This document shows, piece after piece, positions 1 through 14,666 of a stretch of DNA of 64,000 bases. Source of the DNA: an uncultured Pelagibacteraceae bacterium (lineage in GTDB: Bacteria > Pseudomonadota > Alphaproteobacteria > Pelagibacterales > Pelagibacteraceae); NCBI GenBank assembly GCA_902619835.1, contig CACNFS010000002.1, positions 3,607 through 67,606 on the forward strand, given 5' to 3'. The notes beneath the pieces were generated by a model. It saw nothing but the letters and a program-made list of their open reading frames with translations. It ran no database searches and had not been told where the DNA came from. The position numbers and the translations under genes are program-made. The stretch's first letter is position 1. Every line of letters begins with the position of its first letter.

Positions 1-26
1 AGACAATAAAAAGTAAAGATAAACAA

Positions 27-314
27 ATGGAAAATATTAAAGATATTTCCAGTAATGCAACTTATTTATATAATAAATTTGTTTTTCTAAAAAAAAATCT
101 TAAATTAGCAATTAAGTCCTTCAGAGACCATTCTATTAATCTACAAAAAGTTATAGATACTGGTTGGGGAAATAAATCTTCTTTAGAAAAATCTTTTGAA
201 AAATTTAAGAAGAAACATGGCTTGAATGAATCCAAAGAGATGCCCACAAGCACATTAGAGGAAAATCAAATTAGCGATTTAGATGATCCTGAAGAAAAAA
301 CATCTGTAAATTAA
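27..314 (+). CDS. hypothetical protein (accessory)
   Basis: 95-aa ORF with acidic C-terminus, 1 bp from the next ORF; no recognisable motif. Confidence 0.55.
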   Translation: MENIKDISSNATYLYNKFVFLKKNLKLAIKSFRDHSINLQKVIDTGWGNKSSLEKSFEKFKKKHGLNESKEMPTSTLEENQISDLDDPEEKTSVN

Positions 315-315
315 T

Positions 316-519
316 ATGAAAAAACACTTAGAATACACCGATGCTAAATCTAATAAGTTCTGGGAAATAGAGCTTAAAGGTAAATCGATAAGCATTTGCT
401 ATGGCAGAATTGGTATTGAAAATCCTGCTAAACAAAACAAATCTTTTCCATCTACAGATTCAGCTAAGAAATATTACGAAAAAAAATTAAGAGAAAAGAT
501 TAATAAGGGTTACCACTAG
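316..519 (+). CDS. stand-alone WGR domain protein
   Basis: SNKFWEI...YGRIG...A..YYEKKLREKINKGY matches the WGR domain pattern. Confidence 0.85.
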   Translation: MKKHLEYTDAKSNKFWEIELKGKSISICYGRIGIENPAKQNKSFPSTDSAKKYYEKKLREKINKGYH

Positions 520-569: not shown

Positions 570-1523
570 TTAAATGTATTCTAAAATTTTTTTTGCAGGA
601 ATTGTTTTTTTAATCCAGGCTAATGGAATGTTTCTATCTTTTAATGCTGTAAAGTAACTTCCGCAGAAAATTGCCCGGCTAACGTTACAGCCTCCAGCTT
701 TGATTGTTTTAATAATAGCCTGTTCGTAATTACTTGAGGTAATTACACAATGAACCGAACTTTTAAAATTTCCAGGATCTGAACATGCTTTGCCTAGCAT
801 GCGAGTGACTTTAGTATGATCTTGATTTTTAAGTTTTAACACCTTCTGAATGTCTTTAACTACTTCTTTAAAATACTTATTTTTCTTATTCAATTTAATA
901 AATTTTTGAATAGGATTTTTTTCTCTCTGACTTGCTAAATCTATAATCTTCAATCTAGCCAAACCGTAGACTTCATTTAAATGTGAATCTGCTGCAATTC
1001 TAATAACTTTTTTAACTTCCTTATCATCCTTACTTACTAAAAAATAATACGGTATCGCGGCATTGAAACCGTCTGTTTCTTGAACGACTTTTAAACCTCC
1101 CTTAACTCTTTTTTTACTTTTAATTTTCTGAATGGCCACAAGTGTATTTTGATGTATCCAATTTCCTTTAAGCGGTTTTAGCCATTTTTTTTTCTTGTAC
1201 TTACGTCTCTCATTTAAGTTCTTAAAATAAATAGAACCAGGGCCAAAATGTGTAACTAAGTTTTTTTTAAAATTTTCAATTATTTCTAATTTTTTTTTTG
1301 AAGTTATTATTGTTTGAAACATTACCTGAGCCATGTCGTTGTAACCGCTAACGGCTCCCAGGGGTATAGAATAAAAAGGACATTTGTTTTCTCTAAAAAA
1401 AGCTATATCTTTTTTGCCTTTAATATAATTTTTTAATTTTTTAGGATCATAGACCCAATGTAAAGGTCTCGCTGCTGCATCGGCAACTGTAGCTCCTAAT
1501 AAAATTTTTAAACCTTCATACAT
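570..1523 (-). CDS. ADP-ribosylglycohydrolase-family protein (J1-crystallin-like subgroup)
   Basis: N-terminal LLGATVADAAARPLHWVY and C-terminal AGGCNVSRA...IPLAW motifs. Confidence 0.75.
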   Translation of the reverse strand: MYEGLKILLGATVADAAARPLHWVYDPKKLKNYIKGKKDIAFFRENKCPFYSIPLGAVSGYNDMAQVMFQTIITSKKKLEIIENFKKNLVTHFGPGSIYFKNLNERRKYKKKKWLKPLKGNWIHQNTLVAIQKIKSKKRVKGGLKVVQETDGFNAAIPYYFLVSKDDKEVKKVIRIAADSHLNEVYGLARLKIIDLASQREKNPIQKFIKLNKKNKYFKEVVKDIQKVLKLKNQDHTKVTRMLGKACSDPGNFKSSVHCVITSSNYEQAIIKTIKAGGCNVSRAIFCGSYFTALKDRNIPLAWIKKTIPAKKILEYI

Positions 1524-2623
1524 TAGTTTATTTTTTTATTTACCGGCAAACTTGAGGTTCTTAACTGTCCACAACCACTTAATGATTTTTCATCAGCACC
1601 GCCACTTCTTCTAACCGTCACAATAAATCCTGCATTTTTAACTATTTGAGCAAATTCATTTGTCTTATCTTCAGAGACAGGTTTTATTTTACATCCTGGC
1701 CATGTATTCATAAAGATTAAATTTAATTTAGACGGAAACTGTTTCATTACTTTTACTAACTCTCTTGCATCTTCCGGGCTATCATTGATCCCTTTCATAA
1801 GAGTATATTCGACAAACACTTTCTCTTTCACAACACTAGTATAATATTTACAACTTTTAATAACTTCTTCTAAAGGATATTTTTTATTTATAGGAATCAC
1901 TTTATTTCTTTTTTCATTTGTTCCTGCGTGAATTGAAAGTGCTAAATGCACCCCTACCTCATCAGTAAATTGAATAATTTTATCTGGTACTCCGATAGTT
2001 GATAAAGTTATCGATTTCTTGCCCATATGAATTCCCTCGGGTTCCATTAAAATTTTAATAAATTGTTTTGTTTCTATATAATTTGTTAACGGTTCTCCTG
2101 ATCCCATGAGCACTACTCTACTTAAAAGTCTTTGATCCCCAAAATCATTGAGGTATCTTTTTGCTATCATCATTTGCATAACTATTTCACTAGCAGATAA
2201 ATTTTTAACTAATAGCTGCGTTCCAGTTGCGCAATGAATACAAGCACTATTCTTTGACATCGCACATCCAACCTGCACTGATACACAAATAGTGTTATGC
2301 GATTTACTAGGTATTAATACAACCTCAATTAAATTTTTATTCTCATCGTTTAATTCTAAAAGCCACTTAATTGTTTTATCGCTTGCGACTTCTTCTTTTA
2401 AAATTTTTGGTAATTCTAAAGATAAAACATTATCTAATTTTTTTCTTAGTTCAAATGTAACTGTGGTTAAGTCAGAAAAGCTTGTTATCCCTTTTTGGTA
2501 TATTCCCTTGTAAAGTTGTTGAGCCCTCATTTTAACTTTACTTTCTTCAACGCCAATCTTTTCAATAAGGAAATTTTTCAGTTCCTCAAAAGATAAACCA
2601 TAAAAGTTTTGCTTTTTTTGCAT
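1523..2623 (-). CDS. rlmN: RlmN-family radical SAM RNA methyltransferase, divergent
   Basis: TICVSVQVGC, GEPL, LALSIHA, EYTLMKGINDS and GCGQL motifs; cluster motif is CX7CX2C. Confidence 0.85.
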   Translation of the reverse strand: MQKKQNFYGLSFEELKNFLIEKIGVEESKVKMRAQQLYKGIYQKGITSFSDLTTVTFELRKKLDNVLSLELPKILKEEVASDKTIKWLLELNDENKNLIEVVLIPSKSHNTICVSVQVGCAMSKNSACIHCATGTQLLVKNLSASEIVMQMMIAKRYLNDFGDQRLLSRVVLMGSGEPLTNYIETKQFIKILMEPEGIHMGKKSITLSTIGVPDKIIQFTDEVGVHLALSIHAGTNEKRNKVIPINKKYPLEEVIKSCKYYTSVVKEKVFVEYTLMKGINDSPEDARELVKVMKQFPSKLNLIFMNTWPGCKIKPVSEDKTNEFAQIVKNAGFIVTVRRSGGADEKSLSGCGQLRTSSLPVNKKIN

Positions 2624-2643
2624 TAATGGGACTTTATAGACTT

Positions 2644-2667
2644 GAGCGGGCTTATGAAAGCCCGCTC
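2644..2667 (-). terminator. GC-rich hairpin, probable terminator of the 64-aa ORF
   Basis: GAGCGGGCT-tatgaa-AGCCCGCTC perfect 9-bp inverted repeat just downstream of the ORF stop; no strong U tail. Confidence 0.6.
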
Positions 2668-2677
2668 TATAGGAATG

Positions 2678-2872
2678 TTAGAGTTTTTTTGGCTCTGTTT
2701 TTAAATGCTTAAGAATCTGCCCTTTCCGGGGACCATTCTTTAAGGTATATCCAGATGAGCCACCTCCGTTCGTTTCCACGGCAATCTGATTTTTGCTTAA
2801 CTGTAGTGAAATCTTTTGCGAATTTTTTTTTATCGCAGATGATTTGTACAGCTGACTGAACCTATTTGTCAT
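2678..2872 (-). CDS. small hypothetical protein (64 aa, MTNRFSQLY...)
   Basis: ATG at 2872 preceded by an AGGAG RBS (2879-2883); this start fits better than the ORF-track start at 2923. Confidence 0.7.
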   Translation of the reverse strand: MTNRFSQLYKSSAIKKNSQKISLQLSKNQIAVETNGGGSSGYTLKNGPRKGQILKHLKTEPKKL

Positions 2873-2979
2873 AATCAACTCCTTTGTTCTGCGATCTTTG
2901 CAATCCCCATAGAGATTCAGCATGATCTATGCTGACACTTTGCAAGATGATAACATCATCTTTTCCATGTGATATGGAA
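2873..2979 (-). promoter_or_regulatory. candidate structured 5' leader RNA (four stem-loops, repeated UUGCAAAG)
   Basis: inverted repeats at 2963-2979, 2944-2962, 2917-2935 and 2902-2917; CTTTGCAA direct repeat at 2896-2903 and 2938-2945. Confidence 0.55.
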
Positions 2980-3015
2980 TTACCTTAGACATTAATGTAA
3001 GAATATAAATTGTCA

Positions 3016-3168
3016 ATGGATAATAAGTTTATATTAGGTTTATGTATTATAGGTTTTGGCATTCTGTTGCTTTTTTCACGTGCAGATTATTCTATATGGT
3101 TTAGCGCCATTGCTGTTGGAATTGGCTCAGGTATTATTATAACTAAGAAAGATAAAAAAGAGGATTAG
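3016..3168 (+). CDS. small membrane protein (50 aa, not in ORF track)
   Basis: MDNKFILGLCIIGFGILLLFSRADYSIWFSAIAVGIGSGIIITKKDKKED; two hydrophobic segments; stop overlaps the next GTG start. Confidence 0.65.
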   Translation: MDNKFILGLCIIGFGILLLFSRADYSIWFSAIAVGIGSGIIITKKDKKED

Positions 3169-3776
3169 TGAAAAGAATTTGTATTATATTTGGTCATTAC
3201 AATACTAAAACTTCATTTTGTAGCGCTATTAGAGATACTTTTATTCAAGAGTCCGAAAAAATTGGTAACGAAATTGATTTAATTAATTTATACGAAGAAA
3301 AAGAACAATTGCCTTACTATCGTAACATCAATCCTCCACCTAAATTAGTTTTAGATTATAGAAAAAGATTAGAGAGGAGTGATGTGATGTTTATAATAAG
3401 TCCCTGCCACAATTTAAGACTAACAAGTATAACAGAGTCATGGGTCGATTGGATTTTGCACCCGCGCTGGTTTTTTGAATACAAATCACTTATACCTGGA
3501 AATAAGTATTTCAAAAATTATGGTTGGAGTAAACCAGGGGCTATGAAAGGAAAATTGGGTCTCCTTGCGATTGCATACGGTGGGCCGATGCTTGCTTATT
3601 CTAATTTCTCTTTTTTCGACAATATTCCATATCGCCGGATCAAAAAATCTGTTTTTCAATTAGGTGGAATGCGCTGCCAATACTTACGCTTTTTTTCTGT
3701 GTTGCCTAATATGGAAGAGAAAATTTTTAATAAACATATGGAAAGAGTAAGAAAATTAGCTAGGACATTAAAATAA
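3168..3776 (+). CDS. NAD(P)H-dependent oxidoreductase, flavodoxin-like fold (KefF/MdaB-type)
   Basis: ICIIFGH...SFCSAIRD, IDLINLY and L..SDVMFIISP...WVD motifs. Confidence 0.75.
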   Translation: MKRICIIFGHYNTKTSFCSAIRDTFIQESEKIGNEIDLINLYEEKEQLPYYRNINPPPKLVLDYRKRLERSDVMFIISPCHNLRLTSITESWVDWILHPRWFFEYKSLIPGNKYFKNYGWSKPGAMKGKLGLLAIAYGGPMLAYSNFSFFDNIPYRRIKKSVFQLGGMRCQYLRFFSVLPNMEEKIFNKHMERVRKLARTLK

Positions 3777-3810
3777 TTTATTTTTTTTTCAAAAAGTATA
3801 TAAGTTAAAT

Positions 3811-4258
3811 ATGGAAAATTTTAAAAATTGGATGATATCAACAGCTAACGTACTTTTCGACGACCAAAAAAACGACCTGAGAGCGTTACCAAAGGCGGTC
3901 AGGCTACAAATTTTAATCGTGCTATCTTTTATATGGTCGACTGTTTTTAGTCTGTACGTATTTAGTTTGACTACCTTCATTTGGGGGTGGGCCAGGCGTT
4001 ATCATGGCGCACATTGGTCTAATATTCGCAGTGTATTTTACTTTTAAGTTTTTTCATAAAAAACAAGAACAGCCTATTAGCGTTTTTGAGTCTGGAAACT
4101 ATAATCCCGCAAAAATATTTGCTATTTTCTTTATAATTTTCTTCATGTTTATATTTACGAAAGGTATTGACGTTTTAACAAAAACAAACTCGTATGAAAT
4201 TCCTTTTGATGGACCAAATTCAACTACCGAGGAACGCATTAAAAGATTTGTGAAATAA
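3811..4258 (+). pseudogene. membrane protein split by a +1 frameshift (or a sequencing error)
   Basis: removing one base near 3991-3994 (gccAggc) joins ...FIWGWA to GVIMAHIGLIF..., giving one continuous hydrophobic protein from the two overlapping ORFs. Confidence 0.65.
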
Positions 4259-4282
4259 TCTAATCTTTATTAAAATCAATCA

Positions 4283-5122
4283 ATGAAGTTATTAAGAGTA
4301 GGTGATTTAGGTAAAGAAAAAGTTGCTGCGATAGATAAAAATAATATTTTTCGTGATCTTTCCTCTCATATTACTGACTTAAATCCAGACACATTAAAAT
4401 TAAATAATCTTACAGAATTAAAGAAAATAAAGTTAGAAGATTTACCTGAAGTTCCAAAAAATAAAAGAGTTGGTGCATGTATTAATAGGCCTAGTAACAT
4501 ACTATGCGCGGGACTTAACTATTCACTCCATGCCGCTCAGACAGGAAGTAAACTTCCAGACTATCCAATAATATTTAACAAAAGCCCTGACTGTTTACAG
4601 GGTCCATTTGATCCAATTAAGAAAAATAAAACTCAAGAAAAATTAGATTACGAAATCGAGCTTGCTGTTGTGTTGGGCAAAGAGGCAAAAAACATAAAGG
4701 AAGAAGAAGCTTTGGATTATGTTTTTGGTTATTTTATTTTAAATGATATTTCAGATCGTCATGCTCAAAAAGTAATTGGTAGTGGACATTGGACTTTAGG
4801 AAAATCTTGGTGTGCACCAGCCGGTGGAATTTTAGTAACTAAAGATGAAATAAATAATATTCACGATATTAATCTGTCTTTAAGCGTAAATGACGAAGAG
4901 AGACAAAAAGGGAATACTAAAAATATGATATTTAAAATAGAGTATCTTATTTCTCATATCAGTAAATATTTAACTTTAAAGCCAGGTTGTGTTATTTCGA
5001 CTGGAACCCCAGCAGGAACTGGTATGGAACAAAAACCACAAAAATTTCTTCAAGTTGGAGACCGGCTGCATTTAAAAGTTGATAATCTTGGAGAACAAAA
5101 ATACGATATCGTTAATGAGTAA
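4283..5122 (+). CDS. fumarylacetoacetate hydrolase family protein
   Basis: CAGLNYSLHA, LDYEIEL, NDISDR and ISTGTPAG motifs. Confidence 0.9.
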   Translation: MKLLRVGDLGKEKVAAIDKNNIFRDLSSHITDLNPDTLKLNNLTELKKIKLEDLPEVPKNKRVGACINRPSNILCAGLNYSLHAAQTGSKLPDYPIIFNKSPDCLQGPFDPIKKNKTQEKLDYEIELAVVLGKEAKNIKEEEALDYVFGYFILNDISDRHAQKVIGSGHWTLGKSWCAPAGGILVTKDEINNIHDINLSLSVNDEERQKGNTKNMIFKIEYLISHISKYLTLKPGCVISTGTPAGTGMEQKPQKFLQVGDRLHLKVDNLGEQKYDIVNE

Positions 5123-5225
5123 ACGTTATTCTGGAAAATCGTGGAAAGCTAGGAGTTTTAAAAAAAAAGCAAAATTGAGTTTTAAAGAAAAAAGAAGACT
5201 TAAAAGAGAGAAAAGAAATAAATAA
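5115..5225 (+). CDS. very basic 36-aa peptide (not in ORF track)
   Basis: MSKRYSGKSWKARSFKKKAKLSFKEKRRLKREKRNK fills the gap between the FAH and SRAP genes. Confidence 0.55.
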   Translation: MSKRYSGKSWKARSFKKKAKLSFKEKRRLKREKRNK

Positions 5226-5227
5226 TC

Positions 5228-5854
5228 ATGTGTGGAAGATATAGTGTTCAGAAAAAAACATTACTAGTAGCAAATAGTTTAGTTAAGAAGAATATTAATG
5301 TAGATCTTGAGCAAGATAATTTTAATTGTGCTCCTGGTGGAAAATACCCTTGTATTAAATCCGCCACTAACGGTAAATATCTTGAAATGACTGTCTTCGG
5401 CTACCTTCCATCTTGGAGCAAGCCAGATTTTAGACGACTACACAATGCTAGATTAGAGGGTATAGAGACTAAAGTAAGTTTTAAAAAACTTATAGTTAAT
5501 TCAAGAGCAGTTGTGCCTCTTTCTGGATTCATTGAGTGGTCTAAGGTGAACGAAAAGAAAATTCCCTACTATTTTACCAGAGCAGACTCTGAAGATATCT
5601 TTTGCCCAGCTATTCATGATGCAGGACAATTCACAATTCTTACCAGAGATGCCACACCTCAGAATGCTAAAATTCACCACAGACAGCCAGTAATAATCTC
5701 GAAATCTCAAATTAATAATTATTTTAATTTAAATAATAATGCAGTAGAATTTTTAAAAACTGTGAAACCACCTGAGCTAAAGTACCATGAAATTTCAACT
5801 AAAATTAACAATCCAAGTGCAAACGATCCAACATTAATTAATCCAGTACAATGA
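5228..5854 (+). CDS. SOS response-associated peptidase (SRAP/YedK/HMCES family)
   Basis: N-terminal MCGRY, NARLE, FIEW and IHHRQPVI motifs. Confidence 0.9.
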   Translation: MCGRYSVQKKTLLVANSLVKKNINVDLEQDNFNCAPGGKYPCIKSATNGKYLEMTVFGYLPSWSKPDFRRLHNARLEGIETKVSFKKLIVNSRAVVPLSGFIEWSKVNEKKIPYYFTRADSEDIFCPAIHDAGQFTILTRDATPQNAKIHHRQPVIISKSQINNYFNLNNNAVEFLKTVKPPELKYHEISTKINNPSANDPTLINPVQ

Positions 5855-6648
5855 CTAAACTGTCCATAGAATTATCAGAAAATAATGTTGGTTGTTATGT
5901 TAAAACTAACTTAAAAAACATCACGCACGAAGAAATTCAAGAAATTAAAAAATTATTAAATAAACACTCTGTTCTTTTCTTCAAAGAGCAACATTTAAAT
6001 CCACAAGAATATATAAGATTTGCATCAAATTTTGGTAAGCCCGCTGAGTATCCAATGCTAAAGCCACATAAAGATTTCAAAGATATTTACGTAATTGAGA
6101 GAAAAAAAAGTGACAAAGGAATCGGATTCGGAATTGGCGCTCACACCGACAGCTCATACATGAGTAATCCTCCTCGTTTTACTTTTTTACAAGCTATTCA
6201 AGTTCCTGAAGAGGGAAAAGGTAATACTTTATTTTATAATCAATTTCTTGCATATGAGGCACTTCCAAATGAAATAAAGAATAAGATTGAAAAGCTTAAA
6301 GGTGTTTTTTCTTCTCAAGGAAAAATTGCTAGAACACGAGTACAAAGAGAGGTTGAACATGGGACAAGTAATTCAAAAGAAATAAGATCAGAACATAAAT
6401 TGGTTCAAACCATTGATGGCAGAAAAGCAATCTATTGTTCGCCTGGACATATTGTAGATGTAGCTAATTTAAATTCTAATCAAAAAGAATTTATTGATTT
6501 TTTAACTTCTCATCAAACCAAAAAAGATTTTTCATTTAGTTTTGCTTGGAAAAAAGGCGATATAGCAGTTTGGTCAAACAGATCTATGCTTCATGCAGCG
6601 ACAACTTATAATGGAGATAGAAAAATGTTTAGGATTACTGTTCAATAA
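5851..6648 (+). CDS. TauD/TfdA family 2OG-Fe(II) dioxygenase
   Basis: HTDSSY, GNTLF and W.KGDIAVWSNRSMLH...R motifs. Confidence 0.88.
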   Translation: MTKLSIELSENNVGCYVKTNLKNITHEEIQEIKKLLNKHSVLFFKEQHLNPQEYIRFASNFGKPAEYPMLKPHKDFKDIYVIERKKSDKGIGFGIGAHTDSSYMSNPPRFTFLQAIQVPEEGKGNTLFYNQFLAYEALPNEIKNKIEKLKGVFSSQGKIARTRVQREVEHGTSNSKEIRSEHKLVQTIDGRKAIYCSPGHIVDVANLNSNQKEFIDFLTSHQTKKDFSFSFAWKKGDIAVWSNRSMLHAATTYNGDRKMFRITVQ

Positions 6649-7704
6649 TTAATCTTTCAATAGCTGAGTCAAATGTCCCATTTTTCGACCAGGTCTAATT
6701 TCAGTCTTCAAATAATCGAAAAAAAATTCATTTTCTTTAAACTTTTTATTTCTAAATTCCTTTATTTCATCTCCTAAAATATTAGTCATAACTGCATTAG
6801 AAATTTTTTTATTTTCAATAAATTTTAATCCTAAAATAGCTCTGACATGGTTCATAAATTGGTCTACCTGGTAACTGTTAACAGTATGCCACATTCCATT
6901 ATGACATCTATTGCACCATTCCAAAAAATAAAGTTCCTCTTTTTCATCAATCATAAATTCTATATTTAAAGTTCCTACATAATTAAGTTTTTCGGCAAAT
7001 TTAATTGCAATATCTTGGGATTTTTTTAAAATATTTTTATCTATATTTGCTGGTATTTTTGACTCTCTAAGTATACCTTTTTCATGTTTGTTTTCAGACG
7101 GTTCATAAATTGAAATTTTTCCATCCTTGTATCTTGTTGCAGCTACAGAAATTTCTTGTTTAAATTTGAGAAATTTTTCTAAAATATATTCTTTACTAAA
7201 ATCTATATTCTTATCAATTTCCTCTATAGTCTTAAATCGATATTGTTGCTTACCGTCATAACCTCCAGAAACAGACTTTAATATACAATTACCATAAGAT
7301 TTTACACCCTCTTTTAATTCTTCTAATGATTTTATACTTTTCCATTCGGTAGTTTTTATGCCGAGATCATTTGCAAATTTTTTTTCTAATATTCTGTTTT
7401 GGGCAATTCTTAAAGTATTTGGAGATGGGTGAACTTCTTTTACATCAGCGATAGATTTTAAAATTTCGTAAGATAAATTCTCAAAAGCATAAGTACAAAT
7501 ATTTATTTTTTTTATAAAATTTTCAATTACATTTTTGTCATTTAAATCAGCGCATATAAATTCATCTGCTACGTGCTTTGCAGGACCGTCATTATCATTA
7601 GTAAGAACTATAGTTTTAATACCACCAATTTTTTTTGCAGATTTTATAAGCTGAGTTTCTAATTGCCCGCTATATAAAATTCCAAGCGTTATATCTTTCG
7701 ACAT
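6649..7704 (-). CDS. purK: N5-carboxyaminoimidazole ribonucleotide synthase, divergent
   Basis: ATP-grasp fold; QNRILEK, GYDGK and RKMGH motifs; directly downstream of purE. Confidence 0.85.
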   Translation of the reverse strand: MSKDITLGILYSGQLETQLIKSAKKIGGIKTIVLTNDNDGPAKHVADEFICADLNDKNVIENFIKKINICTYAFENLSYEILKSIADVKEVHPSPNTLRIAQNRILEKKFANDLGIKTTEWKSIKSLEELKEGVKSYGNCILKSVSGGYDGKQQYRFKTIEEIDKNIDFSKEYILEKFLKFKQEISVAATRYKDGKISIYEPSENKHEKGILRESKIPANIDKNILKKSQDIAIKFAEKLNYVGTLNIEFMIDEKEELYFLEWCNRCHNGMWHTVNSYQVDQFMNHVRAILGLKFIENKKISNAVMTNILGDEIKEFRNKKFKENEFFFDYLKTEIRPGRKMGHLTQLLKD

Positions 7705-8205
7705 TTATTTAGGTTTTATTTTTACTGATTTAGTTTGTTTTCTTTTCCATTTTAATAGATTAAATTTTACTTTATCATCAAATGTACCAATAATTTCAGC
7801 TGCAAATAAAGCGGCATTTACTGCTCCTGCTTCACCTATAGGCATCGTGGCTAAGGGGCAACCAGAGGGACAGCAATTTAAACTGAGTAAACTGTCCAAT
7901 CCTTTTAACTTTTTTGTTTCAATCGGAACACCTATAACAGGTATTGATGCTAGAGCAGCAGTTACAGAAGGTAATGAAGCTGAGCCACCAGCAGCAGCAA
8001 TGCAGACGGTATAGTTTTTGTGTAAGTTTTCAGCCCAATTAAACATTCTTTTAGGAGTTCTATGCGCTGAAACAATATGGGTTGTGAATTTTACTTTAAG
8101 TACTTTTAATATATTTTCTGTTTTTCGCATTATTTTGGCGTCGTTTGCCGAACCCATAATAATGCTCACTTTAGGCTGAATTTTTTTAGCTTTAATTCGT
8201 TTCAC
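7705..8205 (-). CDS. purE: N5-CAIR mutase, divergent
   Basis: IIMGS, VSAHRTP, PVIGVP, GLDSLLS and NAALFAA motifs. Confidence 0.9.
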   Translation of the reverse strand: MKRIKAKKIQPKVSIIMGSANDAKIMRKTENILKVLKVKFTTHIVSAHRTPKRMFNWAENLHKNYTVCIAAAGGSASLPSVTAALASIPVIGVPIETKKLKGLDSLLSLNCCPSGCPLATMPIGEAGAVNAALFAAEIIGTFDDKVKFNLLKWKRKQTKSVKIKPK

Positions 8206-8235
8206 AAATTAGTTTAGCAATTATTGGAATAAAAA

Positions 8236-8262
8236 CAATGGCCTAATTAGATTAAGCCATTG
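8236..8262 (-). terminator. probable intrinsic terminator
   Basis: CAATGGCCTAAT/ATTAAGCCATTG inverted repeat followed by a U-run on the minus strand. Confidence 0.55.
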
Positions 8263-8281
8263 GTTTATTTAGGAGGAAAGA

Positions 8282-8404
8282 TTATGCTCGAACTCTGAAA
8301 TTTAAAAATTTTGGACTATTTTGAAGTTCGAAAAGAGAGATTTTTTTGAATTTCTTGGTAATATTAGATTTCAGTTTGTTTTTTTTTAGTTGTTTATTTC
8401 TCAT
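8282..8404 (-). CDS. small basic hypothetical protein (40 aa)
   Basis: MRNKQLKKNKLKSNITKKFKKISLFELQNSPKFLNFRVRA; followed by a terminator hairpin; ATG at 8404 avoids overlap with ybgC. Confidence 0.45.
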   Translation of the reverse strand: MRNKQLKKNKLKSNITKKFKKISLFELQNSPKFLNFRVRA

Positions 8405-8516
8405 AATTCTTTTTAGTTTATTTTGAACTCTATGAGTATTGCTGAATTTGCAAACTTGAGTTGAATATAGTTTATGACGAAAATTTAGGCAGATATTAGG
8501 CGTTTCTTGGCCAATT

Positions 8517-8909
8517 TTAAATTTTTTCAAGAAAATCTTTAGAAAGTTTTTTTATTGACCCACTTCGATCTACAACTGCTAGTTCCACTTCCGCGCTGAC
8601 AAGAATTTCTGTGCCTCTTTTAACCTCTTGAAGCAAATTTAGTCTGACATTAGTTTTTTTTAAAAAGGTTGTTTCAACACTTAAAATATCCTCAAAAACT
8701 GCAGATTTTAGATATTTTATGTTACAACCTCTTACGACAAACATAATATTATGCTCATTCATAAGTTGAGTTAAAGTAAGACCAAATTTATTGTTTATTA
8801 GCTCAGTTCTAGCTCTCTCGATATATTGAAGATATCTTGAATAAAATACTCGACCAAAATCGACATCTTCGACAAAAACTTTCAATTTATAAATGTGGCT
8901 TTTAGACAT
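8517..8909 (-). CDS. YbgC/FadM-family acyl-CoA thioesterase (hotdog fold)
   Basis: EDVD...YLQYIERARTE and FVVR...Y...A.FED.L motifs. Confidence 0.85.
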   Translation of the reverse strand: MSKSHIYKLKVFVEDVDFGRVFYSRYLQYIERARTELINNKFGLTLTQLMNEHNIMFVVRGCNIKYLKSAVFEDILSVETTFLKKTNVRLNLLQEVKRGTEILVSAEVELAVVDRSGSIKKLSKDFLEKI

Positions 8910-9016
8910 AATTTAATCATAAGGCTAAAATTTATCTTATTCAATAAAGTTTCAATTTCTTTTTTTGGTCCAAATTATGCCAAGCAAAGCACAGACTCTA
9001 ACCTTAGATTTTAACC

Positions 9017-9220
9017 ATGAAAATATTATCTACTTTTATGTTATTGCTTATTTTGACTAATTGTGCTGGTAGCAACATGGCCAAAGTAAAATTTGGCAAA
9101 AGATGCACAGCTGCTGATGAGAATGGTTTAAAAGAAAGTTCGTATGTTTGGGTCATTTCAAAAGAAGCGCTTAGATCATTTGATAAGAGAATAAATAAAT
9201 CTAATTGTTCAGATATTTAA
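9017..9220 (+). CDS. small lipoprotein
   Basis: signal peptide with LTNC lipobox. Confidence 0.7.
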   Translation: MKILSTFMLLLILTNCAGSNMAKVKFGKRCTAADENGLKESSYVWVISKEALRSFDKRINKSNCSDI

Positions 9221-9237
9221 TTTCCTTTTAAATTTAA

Positions 9238-10338
9238 TTGTCTGTGCTAATAAGGGGTATGCGAATACCCCTTATTCTGTGTATATTATTTTCTTTAAGT
9301 ATTAGTTTAAATGCTATGGAAAAAAAACCTTATCATCATGTTTATAAAGATGGGAAATTATATTTTAGAAACCTTGAAGGAGGACCAAAAAGAGATCCTA
9401 ATTTTAAATGGGATTGGAAAGTTTTTAGAGAGGAAAAAAAGAAGCTTAAGATTGATTATCCACCTGAACATGTAATTGATAAACAAATAGTTTTAAAAAA
9501 TCTTGAAAAACATAAATCTGATTCATATGTAATGTGGCTTGATCATGCGAGCTTTATAATTAAACTTGGAGACACTACAATAATTACTGATCCAGTTTTT
9601 GAAAAGAATTATGGGCCTATGATATTTGGTCCCAAGAAATACATAGAGTCTCCTTTGTCTCTCAAAGAGCTTCCTAAAATAGATTTATTTTTGCTGACTC
9701 ATAATCATTATGATCACATGAGTATTCGCACGATAAAAAACTTTCCTTATAAAAATGCTAAAGTTCTTGTGCCTCTTAAGCTAGGGAAATATTTCACAAA
9801 AAATGGATATAAAAAAGGTAATGTTAAAGAAATGGATTGGTTCGATAAAATAAAAATTAATGATGAAATCACAATCACGATGCTTCCAAGTCAACATTGG
9901 TCACGTCGGTGGATATGGGGAGATGGAAATACCAATAGATCACTTTGGGGAAGCTTTCTAATTGAATACAAAGACAAAAAAATCTTTTTTGCTTGCGATA
10001 CTGGGCCAGCACCATTTTATAAAGAATTAGGAAAAAAATTTGGTTCTATCGATTTGGGTTTTGGAAATTTAGGCGCCTACAATTTCTATCCAATAATTCC
10101 GGTCAAGGATAAATCCACAGCTCACGCAAATCCTGAAGAGCTTTTATCTCTAATGAAAGACTTAAAAGTAAAAAAGGTTATAGGTATGCATTGGGGAACA
10201 GCAATATTAAGTTTGGAACCGATCTGGGAACCTCCTGTAAGGTTTAAACAAAATGCTGAAAAGTTTGGCTATAAAAAAGAGGAGGCAATTATATTTAAAA
10301 TTGGTGAGATTAAAAAATTAAATGACCTTATCAACTAG
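9238..10338 (+). CDS. exported MBL-fold metallo-hydrolase (RomA/NAPE-PLD-like)
   Basis: THNHYDH, QHWS, CDTG and MHWGT motifs; N-terminal signal peptide; start may be ATG at 9259. Confidence 0.88.
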   Translation: MSVLIRGMRIPLILCILFSLSISLNAMEKKPYHHVYKDGKLYFRNLEGGPKRDPNFKWDWKVFREEKKKLKIDYPPEHVIDKQIVLKNLEKHKSDSYVMWLDHASFIIKLGDTTIITDPVFEKNYGPMIFGPKKYIESPLSLKELPKIDLFLLTHNHYDHMSIRTIKNFPYKNAKVLVPLKLGKYFTKNGYKKGNVKEMDWFDKIKINDEITITMLPSQHWSRRWIWGDGNTNRSLWGSFLIEYKDKKIFFACDTGPAPFYKELGKKFGSIDLGFGNLGAYNFYPIIPVKDKSTAHANPEELLSLMKDLKVKKVIGMHWGTAILSLEPIWEPPVRFKQNAEKFGYKKEEAIIFKIGEIKKLNDLIN

Positions 10339-11542
10339 CTTTTCTTTTATTTCTTTCTCTCTCAAGTAGAGCAGTAAGTGAGTCTACCATAAAATCTGAG
10401 GCATCAAAAATCTGATCTCTCTTAAATTCTTTTGAAATATTTTTTTCTGGATCTGTTTTGTCCTCAATAACTATCCCTTCAGTAGGAGCATCATCTTTTA
10501 AATAAATGCAAATCAACCACTCATCTTCAGGGGTATCATCCCATTTAATATATATGGCGGACTCCTCAATCCTTTTATCTATACACCTCATTAAGGGAAG
10601 ATGTTTACTTAAAAATTTTTTATTTATGTTGAAACAAAGTGAAAGAGATGTTCTATAATATGATATAAGTGCGTACTCTACTTTTTCTCTTTCCTCATTA
10701 AAAATTCTTTCTTTTTCTAACAAAACTTCTTTTGTATCACTGTCTTTTACATCAACACCAAATTGAGTAAGTCTTTCTCTAATTGCTTCTTCAATTTTTT
10801 GTTGTCTTAGAGCTTTGTATTTTTCTTTGATCTTATCTATACGTAGTTTAACTTCTTCGTAAGACTCTCTTTGTTGGCTTAAGACGTATTTAGAAAGTGC
10901 TTGGACTTCTTTTTCTTCTCTTTGAATGAAGCTTTTTATTTTTTTCTCTAATTTAATTTGTTCTAAAAATTTCCTTTGTTTTTCTGCTCGTTCTCTTCTA
11001 AGTTCAGCTTGATCCTCGCGTATAAATCTTTTCAGATCAATTGATAATTGGCGACTAAACTCTTTCTCCTCTTTTAACTCAAGGGCTTTGGCTTTTAATG
11101 CTATTTCCTCTTGTTGCATAAAACGCTTCTTTGCCTCTATTTTTTCTCTTTCCATTTCTTTTATTTTTTTTTCTTTTTGTTTTGCTCTTTCTTCTTGAAT
11201 AACTTTTTTAATATTTGAAACTCGGTTAGAAATACCTTGAAAAAAATTTTGAAGAGATTTATCTAGATTTAAATTAAACCTTAGCATTGATTTAATTTTG
11301 TCACTTAAACTTAGAATTCCTGAAACTACTGCTCTTGTTTTCTGAGTTTTTTTACGTTTCGTCCTGAAAGGAATTACTCTCTTTTTTCGAGCCTTAATTT
11401 TTTTTCTTCTTTTTTTAACTGTTCTTTTTATTTTTGATTTTTTTTTGAGAACTTTTCTTCTTTTTTTAACAGATTTTACAGATTTAAATCTTTTTGATTT
11501 AATTGTCTTATTTTTCTTAAGTTTCCTTTTCTTTCTTTTCAT
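10331..11542 (-). CDS. hypothetical protein: Lys/Arg-rich N-terminus, long coiled coil, acidic globular C-terminus
   Basis: composition seen directly in the translation. Confidence 0.7.
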   Translation of the reverse strand: MKRKKRKLKKNKTIKSKRFKSVKSVKKRRKVLKKKSKIKRTVKKRRKKIKARKKRVIPFRTKRKKTQKTRAVVSGILSLSDKIKSMLRFNLNLDKSLQNFFQGISNRVSNIKKVIQEERAKQKEKKIKEMEREKIEAKKRFMQQEEIALKAKALELKEEKEFSRQLSIDLKRFIREDQAELRRERAEKQRKFLEQIKLEKKIKSFIQREEKEVQALSKYVLSQQRESYEEVKLRIDKIKEKYKALRQQKIEEAIRERLTQFGVDVKDSDTKEVLLEKERIFNEEREKVEYALISYYRTSLSLCFNINKKFLSKHLPLMRCIDKRIEESAIYIKWDDTPEDEWLICIYLKDDAPTEGIVIEDKTDPEKNISKEFKRDQIFDASDFMVDSLTALLERERNKRKAS

Positions 11543-11568
11543 ACTGCTATCTTATTTAATAACAGTTT

Positions 11569-12768
11569 TTAGTTATAAATGTAATCTCGAGTTCTAGAAG
11601 CAGTTGAAAAGTTCTTAACAAGTTGGATTTGAAAAACAAGAAGATCTCGGTATCTAAAAGCGGCGCTCGTTGAACTTAAGTAAAACTCCCACATTTTACA
11701 GAACTTTTCATCAAATAAATCTTTCATTTCAGTCCTTTTCGCTAAGAATCTTTCTCTCCATGCTTCCAAAGTTAAATCGTAATGTTTGATTAAAGTTTCA
11801 CAATCATTCACAATGAAACCTGATTTTTCAATTGGTTTGATGATTTGACTATAAGATGGACATCTTCCACCTGGAAAAATACGAGTATTTATCCAGCGAG
11901 ATGGTGCTGAAGGCGGTCCAACGACCCCAATTGTGTGAAGTAAAAAAGTTCCATTATCTTTTAATAAGTCGTAAGTTTTTTTAAAAAAGGTATTATAGTA
12001 CTTCAAAGATGTGTGTTCGAACATGCCAATTGAGTAGAGTTTATCGAATTTACCACCCATATCTCTATAGTCTCTAAGCTCGAAATTGATTTGATTATCT
12101 AAATTTAATTCCTTTGCATTTTGCACAGCATAATCTAGTTGGTTTTTGCTCAACGTTATACCAGTTACTTCACAACCAGTTTGTTTAGCTATGTATGCAG
12201 CGGCAGTTCCAAAACCACAACCGATATCTAGAATTTTATCTCCTTTTTTAATTTTTAGTTTTTTTATAATATGATTGAGTTTATTTATTTGAGCTTCTTC
12301 TAATGTTTTTGTGTCATCTTTCCAAATCGCACAAGAATATTGCATATTACTGCAAAGCATATTTGTATACAATTTTATTCCTTTCTTACCTCCTAAATCA
12401 TAATGGCTCGATATCTGCTGTTTTGATTTTGACTTTGTATTAAAATTTGAAATATATCTCCAAATACCAAACAATTTTTTTACCAAATCGCTATATAAAG
12501 TAATTTCACCTCGCCCAAGATTTTTTACAAAAACCATCAAAAATTCATGCAGTGTTGCATTTTCTATTATTATTTCCTCATTAATATAAGCTTCGGGAAA
12601 ATAATATTCTGGCTCTACCAATAATAAATATTTTAGTTTTTTGTTTAATAGTTTAACAGTGATAGGTTTTTTAGAGTTTGGTTTACCAATAAAGTACTTA
12701 ACATTTTCATCTTGTAAAATTATACCGTCTTCCTTATAAATTTTTGACAAGACTCTTGCTAATAACAT
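11569..12768 (-). CDS. cfa: cyclopropane-fatty-acyl-phospholipid synthase family methyltransferase
   Basis: HYD, QYSCA, LDIGCG, GITLS, GMFEH, IFPGG and MWEFYL motifs. Confidence 0.88.
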   Translation of the reverse strand: MLLARVLSKIYKEDGIILQDENVKYFIGKPNSKKPITVKLLNKKLKYLLLVEPEYYFPEAYINEEIIIENATLHEFLMVFVKNLGRGEITLYSDLVKKLFGIWRYISNFNTKSKSKQQISSHYDLGGKKGIKLYTNMLCSNMQYSCAIWKDDTKTLEEAQINKLNHIIKKLKIKKGDKILDIGCGFGTAAAYIAKQTGCEVTGITLSKNQLDYAVQNAKELNLDNQINFELRDYRDMGGKFDKLYSIGMFEHTSLKYYNTFFKKTYDLLKDNGTFLLHTIGVVGPPSAPSRWINTRIFPGGRCPSYSQIIKPIEKSGFIVNDCETLIKHYDLTLEAWRERFLAKRTEMKDLFDEKFCKMWEFYLSSTSAAFRYRDLLVFQIQLVKNFSTASRTRDYIYN

Positions 12769-12771
12769 AAT

Positions 12772-13656
12772 TTAAGCCGCTAAGTTTTTTTCGTTATTGA
12801 ATTTAAGTTTATTCAATTTTTCAATAAGTTCTTTCTGTTTTTCCTCATTTAATAAAGTAAGTGGAGGTAATATATTCTTATAGTTTTCATCTTTAATCGA
12901 ATGATAACTATGCAAGGCAGATATCAAATTATATTGATCAAATGTTTCTCTTACAGCTATTAATTGGTCGTTTTTTGTTTGTGGAGTTTTATTTTCGAAA
13001 TCATCAAACACTTTTCTAGCTAAAGAGTGAGTCGAGTTTGTGCACGCGCTGATGATCCCCGCAGAGCCTTTTTCCAATCCTTTAAGTAATTTTGCCTCAC
13101 TTCCAGGAAAAATTAAAAAATCTTTAATCTTTAAATTTTCATATAAGTTATAAGAAGAGTCTTTAACGCCAATTATATTTTTAGGAAATGACTTAATTAA
13201 TTTTGTAATTGCTTCAATTGAAAACAAATAACCAGATAATTTCTGAAAGTTATAGATTACAATTTTTATTTTAGGACATGATAAAATTATTTTTTTATAA
13301 AATTCAAAAACTCCCTCGTCAGAATTTCCAACGTAGTAGGCGCTTGGCATTAATAAAATTGTATTAAAGCTAAACTCACTTGCGTATTTTATTAATTCAA
13401 TATTTTCGTTAAGACTATTGCAGCCTGTTCCTAAAAAAAACTGTTTTCTTAATTTGTGGGTAGAAATTTTCGAAATTAGCTCCATTTTTTCATTTTTGGA
13501 GATAAGCTGAGACATTCCAGTGCTCCCAAAAAAGAAACATCCATGTAGACCGTTTTTAATTAAATTTTCTGCATGAGAAATCGTAGCCTCAACGTTCAAC
13601 GTTAAGTCTTTATTTAAAACACTTAAACTAGCTGCGTATATCCCTCGTTTTAACAT
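12772..13656 (-). CDS. DapA/NAL-family class I aldolase
   Basis: GSTG, YNF and GVKDSS (Schiff-base Lys); probable start MLKRG at 13656. Confidence 0.85.
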   Translation of the reverse strand: MLKRGIYAASLSVLNKDLTLNVEATISHAENLIKNGLHGCFFFGSTGMSQLISKNEKMELISKISTHKLRKQFFLGTGCNSLNENIELIKYASEFSFNTILLMPSAYYVGNSDEGVFEFYKKIILSCPKIKIVIYNFQKLSGYLFSIEAITKLIKSFPKNIIGVKDSSYNLYENLKIKDFLIFPGSEAKLLKGLEKGSAGIISACTNSTHSLARKVFDDFENKTPQTKNDQLIAVRETFDQYNLISALHSYHSIKDENYKNILPPLTLLNEEKQKELIEKLNKLKFNNEKNLAA

Positions 13657-13703
13657 CTTATTGTCCCAATTTATTGAAATAAAATATAATATAAGTTTCA
13701 AAA

Positions 13704-14666
13704 ATGAAAGTTCTGATTCTCATTAATAAAATAGGCCTTGGAGACTGCGTGATTCACATAAATTATATTCATGAAATCTCGAAAAAATACAAAAAACCAG
13801 TTTCAATATTAGCCAAGGAAAATACAAGAGCAAAAGATCTGTTTAGAGATGACCCTCATATTGATGAAGTTATAACATTGGATCGTTTAAATGATAATTC
13901 GGGTAGCCATGATGGTCTAAATGGATTTTTTAAATTAGCAAGGGATATTAAAGATAAAAGGTTTGATGAAGTATTCATCTTTAATAGTTCAATAAGATAT
14001 TATTTAATTTGTAAATTTGCGGGTATAAAAAAAATAGCTCAATATCCATTATTTAAAAAAAAAGGACAGCATGTAGTTAATACTGCAAAAATTTTTACTG
14101 AAAATGAACTAAATAAAATTGTATCAACAAAACCAAAGCTTTTAATTAGTGAAGAAAAAATTCTAAGTGCTAGAAAAGATATATCTCAGAGTCATAAAAA
14201 TATTGTATTGGGAATAAGCGCATCTGGACCAACAAAGCGTTGGGGTATCGCAAACTTTATAAGATTAATTGAAAAAATAAATGAAAAACTTCCTTCCAAA
14301 TTTTATTTAGCTGCTGGAAAAAATGATCAAAAATTGATTGATGAAATATTGAACTCAAATATAGGACCTAATTGTATTTCTTTAAATAATTTAAAGATAA
14401 GTGAGATGATGCCTATAATAGCTAATTGTAATTTGTATTGTGGAAATGATACTGGGTTTATGCATATAAGTGCAGCTCTTAATTTAAAAACTATAGCTTT
14501 ATTTATGGATAGTCCAGTGCTTGCTTATGGAAAGTACTCAGAAAATATTAGTGTAATAATTCCAGAGGGTGAAACTGAGGAAACAACAACTCACAACACT
14601 TTAGGTGCGGATAAGATCTCTTTTGATAGAGTTTATGATAAATGTATTAAACTTTTATCTAACTAA
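13704..14666 (+). CDS. glycosyltransferase family 9 (heptosyltransferase-like)
   Basis: IGLGD, KRW and GNDTGFMHISAAL motifs. Confidence 0.88.
   Translation: MKVLILINKIGLGDCVIHINYIHEISKKYKKPVSILAKENTRAKDLFRDDPHIDEVITLDRLNDNSGSHDGLNGFFKLARDIKDKRFDEVFIFNSSIRYYLICKFAGIKKIAQYPLFKKKGQHVVNTAKIFTENELNKIVSTKPKLLISEEKILSARKDISQSHKNIVLGISASGPTKRWGIANFIRLIEKINEKLPSKFYLAAGKNDQKLIDEILNSNIGPNCISLNNLKISEMMPIIANCNLYCGNDTGFMHISAALNLKTIALFMDSPVLAYGKYSENISVIIPEGETEETTTHNTLGADKISFDRVYDKCIKLLSN

What the first reader, a model, noticed from the sequence alone, without database searches (positions are those of the whole stretch)
570..13656. ~13-kb block of mostly intact housekeeping genes with rewritten conserved motifs, fading to the right
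Seen: gene after gene keeps an open frame and most metal or catalytic residues, but the surrounding normally near-invariant positions are replaced, often with small in-frame indels. Examples against family consensus: RlmN CX7CX2C and MGSGEP (CX3CX2C, MGMGEP); PurK YSGQLE and EWCNRCHNGMWHT (GGGQLG, EIAPRVHNSGHWT); PurE SASLPS and NCCP (AHLPG, QMP); YbgC DVDFGRVFY (DTDAGGVVY); FAH KSWCAPAGG (KSFDTFxPxGP); TauD AHTD and WSNR (WHxD, WDNR); SRAP FNCAP and FGYLP (YNxAP, WGLxP); MBL WLDHA (WxGH). Cfa and the DapA-like gene are only mildly affected. polA, ahcY, gyrB, dnaA and the fab genes in the same window look canonical. The block abuts accessory genes (hypothetical, WGR) at the left edge. Inference: a locally fast-evolving segment next to an island or element beyond the window. 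It could be a cassette of replacement alleles exchanged by homologous recombination, a duplicated gene set under relaxed or diversifying selection, or a localised mutagenesis zone. This is my best candidate for an undescribed system.
Basis: partly seen in the sequence, partly recalled or inferred. Interest (0 to 1): 0.85.

Follow-up and report, generated by a model that had tools for sequence, protein, structure and literature searches.

The report
SAR11 zone that rewrites enzyme motifs
In the ocean's commonest bacteria (SAR11), housekeeping genes within about 20 kb of a nuclease-bearing swappable cassette occur as several deeply different versions under purifying selection, with their conserved motifs rewritten or interrupted, likely to escape cutting by that cassette.

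Summary
The window (Pelagibacteraceae) holds the right half of a ~40-kb zone peaking at trxA-sbcB-rmuC, just left of position 1, where defence-type cargo is swapped. Across 69 congeners nearly every zone gene has 2-10 allele classes at 25-65% identity (flanks mostly 80-98%), single copy, under purifying selection, reassorted gene by gene and shared across genera and families. Near-invariant residues are lost out of proportion and independently in each class. Rare classes cluster with alternative sbcB/rmuC cassettes. New: thioredoxin is interrupted at WCGPC by 41-52-nt stop-plus-hairpin inserts in 10 genomes including this one, built like the T4 gene 60 bypass; trpB (7 genomes) and a window gene (3982-3998; 4 genomes) carry a conserved +1 base. 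Such breaks would change the nucleic acid but not the protein, which points to a DNA-level attacker. RmuC with an intact D-x-K motif goes with loss of contiguous CGPC (11 of 13), the D-S-H form with its retention (40 of 40). Best reading: homing-like nuclease drive with immune flanks (0.35); no cutting or recoding is shown.

The parts
3..314 (+). 3' end of rmuC (gene begins 870 bases left of the window); PD...D-S-K nuclease motif intact; right edge of the central cassette. Further left on contigs C2 and C23: repressor-like gene, sbcB (ExoI) class B, interrupted trxA, folC, accD, trpA, trpB
316..519 (+). WGR-domain protein, cargo seen with alternative cassettes
570..1523 (-). ADP-ribosylglycohydrolase, minority class (6 of 47)
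1523..2623 (-). rlmN, class with CX7CX2C and MGSGEP (6 of 57)
2678..2923 (-). small basic protein with a variable leader, present throughout the genus
   Evidence: no Pfam, PHROG or Rfam match
3168..3776 (+). flavodoxin-like protein, minority class (8 of 63)
3811..4258 (+). 148-residue membrane-protein gene split by one extra base
3982..3998 (+). candidate programmed +1 frameshift site (G-run, one codon, GCC, extra A, GGC); same in 3 other genomes and like the trpB site
4283..5122 (+). FAH-family hydrolase, class KSWCAPAGG (11 of 46)
5228..5854 (+). SRAP protein, minority class (10 of 64)
5851..6648 (+). TauD-family dioxygenase, minority class (12 of 60)
6649..7704 (-). purK, end of a ladder of rewritten alleles nested inside the genus
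7705..8205 (-). purE, rare class (2 of 66)
8517..8909 (-). ybgC thioesterase, rewritten class that is the commonest in the sample (28 of 52)
9238..10338 (+). metallo-beta-lactamase-fold hydrolase, WLDHA class (46 of 65)
10331..11542 (-). 403-residue basic coiled-coil protein, six classes
11569..12768 (-). cfa, rare class (2 of 59)
12772..14666 (.). DapA-like and heptosyltransferase-like genes, fading edge; rare deep alleles of ptrB and azgA further right occur in other genomes

Best explanation
A swappable sbcB-rmuC cassette sits at the peak of a ~40-kb zone of deeply divergent housekeeping alleles, and it likely acts as a homing-like selfish nuclease that would cut competing alleles at conserved coding motifs in neighbouring genes. 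Shown: the zone, its peak, the allele classes, purifying selection, loss of invariant residues, linkage of rare classes to alternative cassettes, conserved motif breaks in trxA, trpB and the window's membrane gene, and the RmuC-motif/CGPC association. Inferred: when two haplotypes meet during recombination the nuclease cuts the non-carrier at a motif; repair copies the cassette with a tract of flank; carriers must lack the site, by changing the residues or by an insert that the ribosome would bypass or frameshift over; drive carries such mildly costly changes up in frequency; once a haplotype is common its nuclease would decay (D-S-H RmuC) and a rare cassette with a new target would start again. 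Many rounds would erase motif after motif, most near the centre.
For: Tent-shaped profile: median-minus-minimum identity 42 points at trxA-sbcB-rmuC, 24-29 within 10 kb, 11-16 at 10-25 kb, mostly 2-8 beyond; 20 of 41 zone genes versus 7 of 98 outside differ by 20 points or more. Three TrpB classes changed 59, 79 and 72 of 162 columns invariant in 24 other Alphaproteobacteria, with overlaps near chance and only 1-6 shared new residues. Identity is spread evenly along class pairs (dispersion 1.1-1.2, 41 pairs) unlike equally divergent outside genes (1.9, 17 pairs). The PurK active-site motif keeps changing along a nested ladder 2.5-3 times longer than the majority branches. Rare alleles: 57 of 121 gene slots in 12 genomes with non-majority sbcB, 29 of 435 in 45 with majority sbcB. 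trxA inserts at WCGPC in 10 genomes, two unrelated types, 5 not multiples of three, stop in codon 1 or 2, compensated hairpin, purifying selection on both sides; kept in RNA-library contigs of two studies. RmuC D-[SA]-K: contiguous CGPC lost in 11 of 13; D-S-H: kept in 40 of 40. RmuC model has a restriction-endonuclease-like fold (Z 8-10). A rewritten TrpB is shared across two families while a congener keeps the canonical one. Precedent: T4 MobA with the gene 60 bypass (10.1101/2022.08.31.505936) and intronless homing (PMC2988022).
Against: No cutting, drive or recoded protein is shown; RmuC's molecular function is unknown (PMC3424549). A recognised homing endonuclease was seen in one genome only (G016). 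One nuclease family would have to retarget very many motifs over 40 kb; no guide or specificity module was found. The seven +1 trpB alleles all sit beside majority sbcB. Exceptions to the association: G104 and G113 (D-S-K with CGPC), G240 (majority-type RmuC with CAPC); genomes are kin, so p-values overstate. Take-off and landing codons are cognate in only 3 of 10 inserts. One other genus has a canonical-scoring rlmN about 7 kb from trpA (G187). DprA was not found in 5 genomes, so the route by which haplotypes meet is unknown.
Confidence: 0.35

Rival explanations
1. Linked selection: the centre is a defence island under frequency-dependent phage selection; rare haplotypes hitchhike repeatedly, recombine little with the majority, and fix mildly harmful changes that are then compensated, like a decaying supergene.
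For: Centre cargo is restriction-modification, HerA-NurA, helicase-nuclease, PIF1 and ATPase genes; rare alleles are linked to rare centres; gradient.
Against: Within-class dN/dS is as low in rare as in common classes; invariant sites are lost far more than in the most divergent reference (TrpB 52-62% kept versus at least 89%); conserved bypass-like and +1 breaks give no benefit under drift; a rewritten TrpB became the majority form across the order.
Confidence: 0.22
2. Homology erasure: without mismatch repair, the last conserved patches let majority DNA recombine in, displacing an addictive cassette or making dead chimeric enzymes; selection removes those patches by substitutions, small indels and recoding inserts.
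For: Flat identity and shorter exact matches in zone pairs; no MutS in 5 of 5 genomes; no between-class mosaics inside genes by a strict scan; breaks sit in the most conserved motifs.
Against: Selection on a recombination modifier is only as strong as the per-generation rate of such events, likely far below the cost of active-site changes (inference); rewritten alleles persist when cut off from their centre (G129, G117).
Confidence: 0.17
3. Protein-level arms race: phages use or inhibit host proteins here (thioredoxin as a T7-type polymerase cofactor, recalled; SbcB/RmuC as inhibitor targets), and the inserts lower or gate thioredoxin output.
For: trxA has the most classes (10 among 51) and is 25-87% identical across the order; sbcB and rmuC are equally diverse.
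Against: About twenty unrelated enzymes are affected by position, not function; purK far from the zone in five genomes of other genera scores like the majority class; recoding would leave the protein unchanged.
Confidence: 0.14
4. The odd alleles are foreign or phage-borne copies that replaced the native genes in place.
For: Repressor-like and homing-endonuclease genes of phage type occur at the centre; one metagenomic TrpB is half canonical, half class B.
Against: Rewritten PurK nests inside the genus; TrpB class B has 54 relatives at 47-93% among the 120 listed and then nothing above 39%; GC3 matches the host; five viral-contig scans and a phage search found no copy.
Confidence: 0.06
5. A local mutagenesis zone (damage-processing genes SRAP, ExoI, RmuC, WGR) raises the mutation rate.
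For: Such genes cluster at the centre; stems are very long (1.4-2.95 changes per site).
Against: Synonymous divergence within classes is not higher near the centre than in ptrB or azgA; a higher rate does not lift purifying selection from invariant sites in large populations.
Confidence: 0.06

Closest known systems
Free-standing homing endonucleases of T4-like phages (Seg/Mob; intronless homing, marker exclusion; PMC2988022, passages read)
   Same: Nuclease gene between conserved genes, targets hundreds to thousands of bases away in conserved sequence, co-conversion of flanks.
   Different: Cellular chromosome; candidate is RmuC, not a known homing family; about twenty genes rewritten along their whole length; activity untested.
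T4 gene 60 translational bypass with MobA (10.1101/2022.08.31.505936, abstract and introduction read)
   Same: About 50-nt insert, stop at the start, stem-loop over or beside the take-off codon, A-rich 3' part, next to a nuclease; insert there protects from nicking.
   Different: Thioredoxin active site of a free-living bacterium; two unrelated insert types; longer hairpin; landing codon often matches at positions 2-3 only; bypass not shown.
Mitochondrial byps of Magnusiomyces (as summarised in the same introduction)
   Same: 27-55-nt inserts in essential genes.
   Different: Here only one gene and site found; stop codon rather than an unused sense codon.
prfB-type +1 frameshift (layout recalled, not from a call)
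   Same: G-rich element shortly before a shift site followed by a slow codon.
   Different: P-site ACC/GCC and A-site AGG; re-pairing in the new frame is poor; untested.
Skp divergence valley in Undatipelagibacter (10.64898/2026.07.03.736256, abstract and passages read)
   Same: SAR11; identity valley around one locus with recombining alleles.
   Different: There one envelope operon with raised dN/dS (0.56) and functional co-selection; here unrelated enzymes, discrete classes, low within-class dN/dS, invariant residues lost, recoding-like breaks. The text has no trpB, rlmN or purK.
SAR11 hypervariable regions and replacement islands
   Same: Centre cargo is swapped at a fixed site.
   Different: The flanks keep the same genes in the same order; the alleles, not the gene content, vary.

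Membership tests
Free-standing homing endonuclease system | Endonuclease gene of a known homing family near the target | tested here: not met
   Orthologues of this genome's centre genes hit RmuC, a repressor family or nothing; a homing endonuclease was found only in G016 among the cargo proteins scanned (34, 21; not all cargo).
Free-standing homing endonuclease system | Carrier's own allele lacks the conserved target | tested here: met
   By association only: 11 of 13 D-[SA]-K RmuC genomes lack contiguous CGPC, 40 of 40 D-S-H genomes keep it; exceptions G104, G113, G240.
Free-standing homing endonuclease system | Flank co-conversion fading with distance | tested here: met
   also expected under hitchhiking.
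Free-standing homing endonuclease system | Site-specific cleavage and biased inheritance | not testable with these tools
   Fold only.
Gene 60-type translational bypass | Insert breaks an otherwise selected frame, with a stop at its start | tested here: met
   10 of 10 have a stop in codon 1 or 2; 23 synonymous versus 4 non-synonymous codon differences around the insert between G000 and G069.
Gene 60-type translational bypass | Stem-loop with the take-off codon in its 5' arm | tested here: met
   Type 1: 20-pair stem, 4 pairs with changes on both sides in 5 distinct sequences. Type 2: the stem starts just after the stop, so only partly.
Gene 60-type translational bypass | Matched take-off and landing codons | tested here: inconclusive
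   Cognate in 3 of 10, positions 2-3 in 9 of 10; the take-off codon itself is uncertain.
Gene 60-type translational bypass | Insert stays in the mRNA | tested here: inconclusive
   Three contigs from two RNA runs span it; no precise joined form; RNA libraries may hold DNA.
Gene 60-type translational bypass | Full-length protein made | not testable with these tools
   Needs mass spectrometry or a reporter.
Gene 60-type translational bypass | Sequence homology to the MobA bypass cassette | not tested
   No comparison run.
Replacement genomic island / hypervariable region | Different gene content at a fixed site | tested here: not met
   True of the few-kb centre only; the flagged block keeps its genes and order.
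Relaxed duplicates or pseudogenes | Canonical second copy and raised dN/dS | tested here: not met
   (genome 80% complete).
Skp-type co-selection valley | Functionally coherent operon with raised dN/dS at the peak | tested here: not met
   Unrelated functions; sbcB, rmuC, trxA within-class dN/dS 0.05-0.16.

The most novel reading that the evidence does not exclude
SAR11 carries an order-wide chromosomal gene drive: RmuC-ExoI cassettes cut rival haplotypes at conserved enzyme motifs, and the arms race has rewritten the active-site surroundings of some twenty essential enzymes several times over and produced ribosomal bypassing and frameshifting in chromosomal housekeeping genes as immunity devices.
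Probability: 0.3. Interest if true: 0.97.

Novelty: categorically new. Interest (0 to 1): 0.88.

Why it matters
It shows that residues invariant across a whole class of bacteria can be replaced wholesale, repeatedly and under purifying selection, depending on where a gene sits; these alleles are natural tests of why motifs are conserved. The trxA inserts are candidates for programmed ribosomal bypassing in a chromosomal gene of a free-living bacterium and can be tested at once with reporters. It gives RmuC, a widespread nuclease of unknown function, a testable role. It also warns that trpB, trpA, accD, rpsA, purK and rlmN mislead phylogeny, annotation and read recruitment in SAR11: several classes fall below curated cut-offs.

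Tried and rejected
Second copies in the genome: none. tRNA integration site: none in the window or in 18 loci. Rfam: no match in window 1-22000. Phage-borne copies: none for PurK, the repressor-like protein, two SbcB classes and TrpB in viral contigs (these scans find close relatives only) and only distant E. coli sbcB in the phage collection. Origin or terminus effect: no skew switch in the zone. The +1 motif as a genome-wide signal: 109 of 201 genomes match a loose pattern, with control counts of similar order, so uninformative. Type-1 insert pattern across the order: 20 of 401 genomes, only 2 at known trxA positions, 16 an identical string that lies elsewhere in the two genomes checked; the insert is rare. 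Metagenome scan: 58 hits, 1 a true trxA insert. Splicing: the one RNA joint (41 bases between 5-base repeats) removes the active-site Cys and is best read as a reverse-transcription skip. Altered genetic code: substitutions show no consistent codon rule (by eye). Fold of the repressor-like protein failed (pLDDT 33) and the Atlas gave no answer. Foldseek and sequence search of solved structures gave nothing significant for RmuC. G098-versus-G024 codon comparison was out of register and dropped. The careful TrpB tree did not finish; the quick tree cannot place the long stems. Earlier findings of this scan: none. The block could not be fetched whole from other genera; order-wide statements rest on scores, positions and short stretches.


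Full report
Source. The window is contig C2:3607-67606 of a 928-kb, 80%-complete genome, G000. Records carrying close relatives of its RlmN are titled Pelagibacteraceae, so this is SAR11. Relatives are cited by handle. The unpublished genomes G194 and G229 stand only in denominators; no claim singles them out.

Observation. RlmN is 42-49% identical to 13 of 16 congener matches, no better than to the sister family (41-45%), while AhcY is 91-98%. Gene by gene the block is mostly 40-60% to congeners and the rest of the window mostly 80-98%. Housekeeping genes outside the block score near or above NCBIfam cut-offs; several block classes fall below (AccD 125-144 against 317, TrpB 307-348 against 392, PurK 252).

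Extent. Congeners are syntenic and show that the zone continues left of the window through rmuC, sbcB, trxA, folC, accD, trpA, trpB, pyrF, rpsA, cmk and lptB; in G000 these lie on C2, C23 and the end of C1, with gaps. With G007 as reference against up to 9 genomes over about 150 kb, the gap between median and lowest identity peaks at 42 points in the 5 kb holding folC-trxA-sbcB-rmuC, is 24-29 within 10 kb on both sides, 11-16 out to 25 kb on the right, and mostly 2-8 elsewhere; 20 of 41 zone genes and 7 of 98 outside genes differ by 20 points or more, several of the 7 probably paralogue mis-pairings. The centre carries variable cargo: methylases, HerA-NurA, ATPases, PIF1, a helicase-nuclease, a repressor-like gene and, in G016, a homing endonuclease.

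Allele classes. I mapped the zone in 69 genomes of the genus: the first relatives with rlmN, all 7 with PurK at 61-88% to G000 (of 117 searched), and others chosen for long contigs, so frequencies are not population estimates. Clustering gives 2-10 classes per gene at 25-65% between classes, while hsp20, gpt and the DnaJ-like gene have one. Within classes dN/dS is 0.04-0.20 for rare and common classes alike; between classes synonymous sites are saturated and GC3 is host-like. Classes are reassorted gene by gene and cross the four backbone groups seen in the table (TrpB class C is 96% identical between G069 and G114). Rare classes fill 57 of 121 slots in the 12 genomes with non-majority sbcB and 29 of 435 in the 45 with majority sbcB; rare rpsA, trpB, trpA, cfa, ptrB and azgA occur only in the former.

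What is changed. Against 24 TrpB from other alphaproteobacterial families, the three classes changed 59, 79 and 72 of 162 invariant columns; overlaps are 29, 32 and 42 against 29, 26 and 35 by chance, with 1-6 shared new residues; the most divergent reference keeps 89%. So even the majority TrpB is rewritten, independently of the others. PLP-lysine and iron-sulphur cysteines stay. In 10-residue windows identity is nearly binomial in 41 class pairs (1.1-1.2) but clumped in 17 outside pairs of like identity (1.9; pairs are not independent). PurK is monophyletic in the genus; the G000 clade is 0.88-1.05 from the ancestor, intermediates 0.57-0.61, majority 0.31-0.42 (FastTree), and the EIAPRVHNSGH motif changes again at each step. 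TrpB class B has a ladder of 54 relatives at 47-93% among 120 listed, then a drop to 39%; stems are 1.4-2.95 changes per site in a quick tree that cannot place them.

Order-wide. Only 2 of 81 genomes have a canonical-scoring TrpA. Of 80 genomes of other genera, 77 match majority TrpB, 9 of them at only 37-43%; TrxA ranges 25-87%. In the sister family G028 has canonical TrpB (642 bits) and its congener G034 the majority rewritten type (395 bits). rmuC lies 4-6 kb from trpA in 5 of 5 complete genomes of three other genera, where purK lies 80 kb or more away and scores like the majority class; rlmN has another neighbourhood in the sister family. This suggests genes become hypervariable after moving into the zone; against it, G187 has a canonical-scoring rlmN about 7 kb from trpA.

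Motif breaks. G000's trxA, its only full TrxA match, is interrupted between WC and GPC by 51 bases with a stop and a long hairpin. Ten genomes in two genera have such inserts: six of type 1 (after the Cys codon) and four of type 2 (after the Gly codon), 41-52 bases, five not multiples of three, each with a stop in the first or second codon, ending in a codon that matches the presumed take-off at positions 2-3 in 9 of 10 and fully in 3. The G069 hairpin folds at z -6.5; four pairs show changes on both sides in five distinct sequences. G000 and G069 differ by 23 synonymous and 4 non-synonymous codons around the insert. A metagenome contig has the same insert; three contigs from two RNA runs span it, one with two further compensated pairs as I read the table, and no precise joined form appears (such libraries can hold DNA). 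Separately, 7 of 40 majority-type trpB genes carry one extra base in an invariant 18-base stretch at the GDTGAG motif although only 26-32% of nearby third positions are invariant, and the window's membrane gene has the like site at 3982-3998, shared with three genomes. Two RNA-run contigs span the trpB site without a gap, so it is not a single-cell artefact. These are candidates for bypassing and +1 frameshifting; neither is shown. If they work, the protein is unchanged and only the nucleic acid motif is destroyed, which is the main reason to place the selection on DNA or RNA.

Candidate agent. RmuC is a PD-(D/E)xK family of unknown function (PMC3424549, passages); a model of modest confidence (pLDDT 57) matches such nucleases at Z 8-10. 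The majority RmuC reads D-S-H and lacks PD; alternative ones read D-[SA]-K. All 40 D-S-H genomes keep CGPC; 11 of 13 D-[SA]-K genomes have lost it, 5 by insert and 6 by substitution; one genome had no motif call. Four further insert genomes lack a majority-type RmuC match, but are incomplete. Counter-examples: G104, G113, G240. MutS, AddA above cut-off and DprA were not found in five genomes each; that AddAB follows trxA in other Alphaproteobacteria is recalled, not tested.

Mechanism. I favour a homing-like nuclease drive with immune flanks (0.35) because it alone gives strong selection against conserved nucleic acid motifs near one locus, explains both escape routes, and has a precedent joining a nuclease to a bypass insert (10.1101/2022.08.31.505936, abstract and introduction; PMC2988022, passages). 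SAR11 recombines heavily (PMC7542561, passages). Its weak points are the number of targets, the missing specificity module, and +1 trpB alleles beside majority cassettes. Linked selection, homology erasure and a protein-level phage race remain open and could act together.

Literature. Eight searches found no description of this zone, of these allele classes or of recoding in SAR11 trxA or trpB; the library lacks most subscription journals. The nearest report is the Skp valley (10.64898/2026.07.03.736256, abstract and passages); its supplements were not read and may list this region among its variable regions. PMC12789548 (passages) was used for family names only; other papers were seen as listings only.

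Verdict. A real, robust and apparently undescribed phenomenon with an unproven mechanism. Interest 0.88.

Noticed in passing
G000 contig C23:3378-3743 (left of the window); L095, L134, L087, L271, L280-L284: trxA interrupted at its active site by bypass-like hairpin inserts of two types in 10 genomes; worth study in its own right.
   Followed up: yes
L049 near 2600 and six other loci; window 3982-3998: Conserved +1 base after a G-run, with AGG as the in-frame next codon, in trpB and in a membrane-protein gene.
   Followed up: partly
G000 contig C1 about 125000-141000; L035, L032: Phosphate-uptake island (pst/pho-like genes by sequence, not scanned) 95-100% identical across otherwise divergent congeners, directly left of the zone: a recent sweep beside an ancient polymorphism.
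   Followed up: no
window 2678-3167: Small basic protein with a structured-looking, variable leader of about 100 bases, kept in all congeners; no family match.
   Followed up: partly
L025:3175-4962: Homing endonuclease and two small phage-like genes between rmuC and rlmN in G016.
   Followed up: partly
protein P0052: Metagenomic TrpB that is canonical in the middle and class B in the C-terminal half; recombinant or assembly chimera.
   Followed up: partly
16 genomes of genus g6: An identical 16-base match to the insert pattern outside trxA; probably an ordinary in-frame sequence, not opened.
   Followed up: no
G107: Six matches to the loose frameshift pattern, more than any other genome; probably three repeated sites counted twice.
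   Followed up: no
G000 contig C17:6974-7051: tRNA-Arg with anticodon UCG beside the usual ACG species; relevant to decoding the CGA in type 1 inserts.
   Followed up: no
G155, G183, G144: No rlmN found in three complete genomes of genus g6, and rlmN is missing from the zone in one backbone group of this genus.
   Followed up: no
L030:7671-13589: A 1972-residue open frame near rlmN in one sister-family genome.
   Followed up: no
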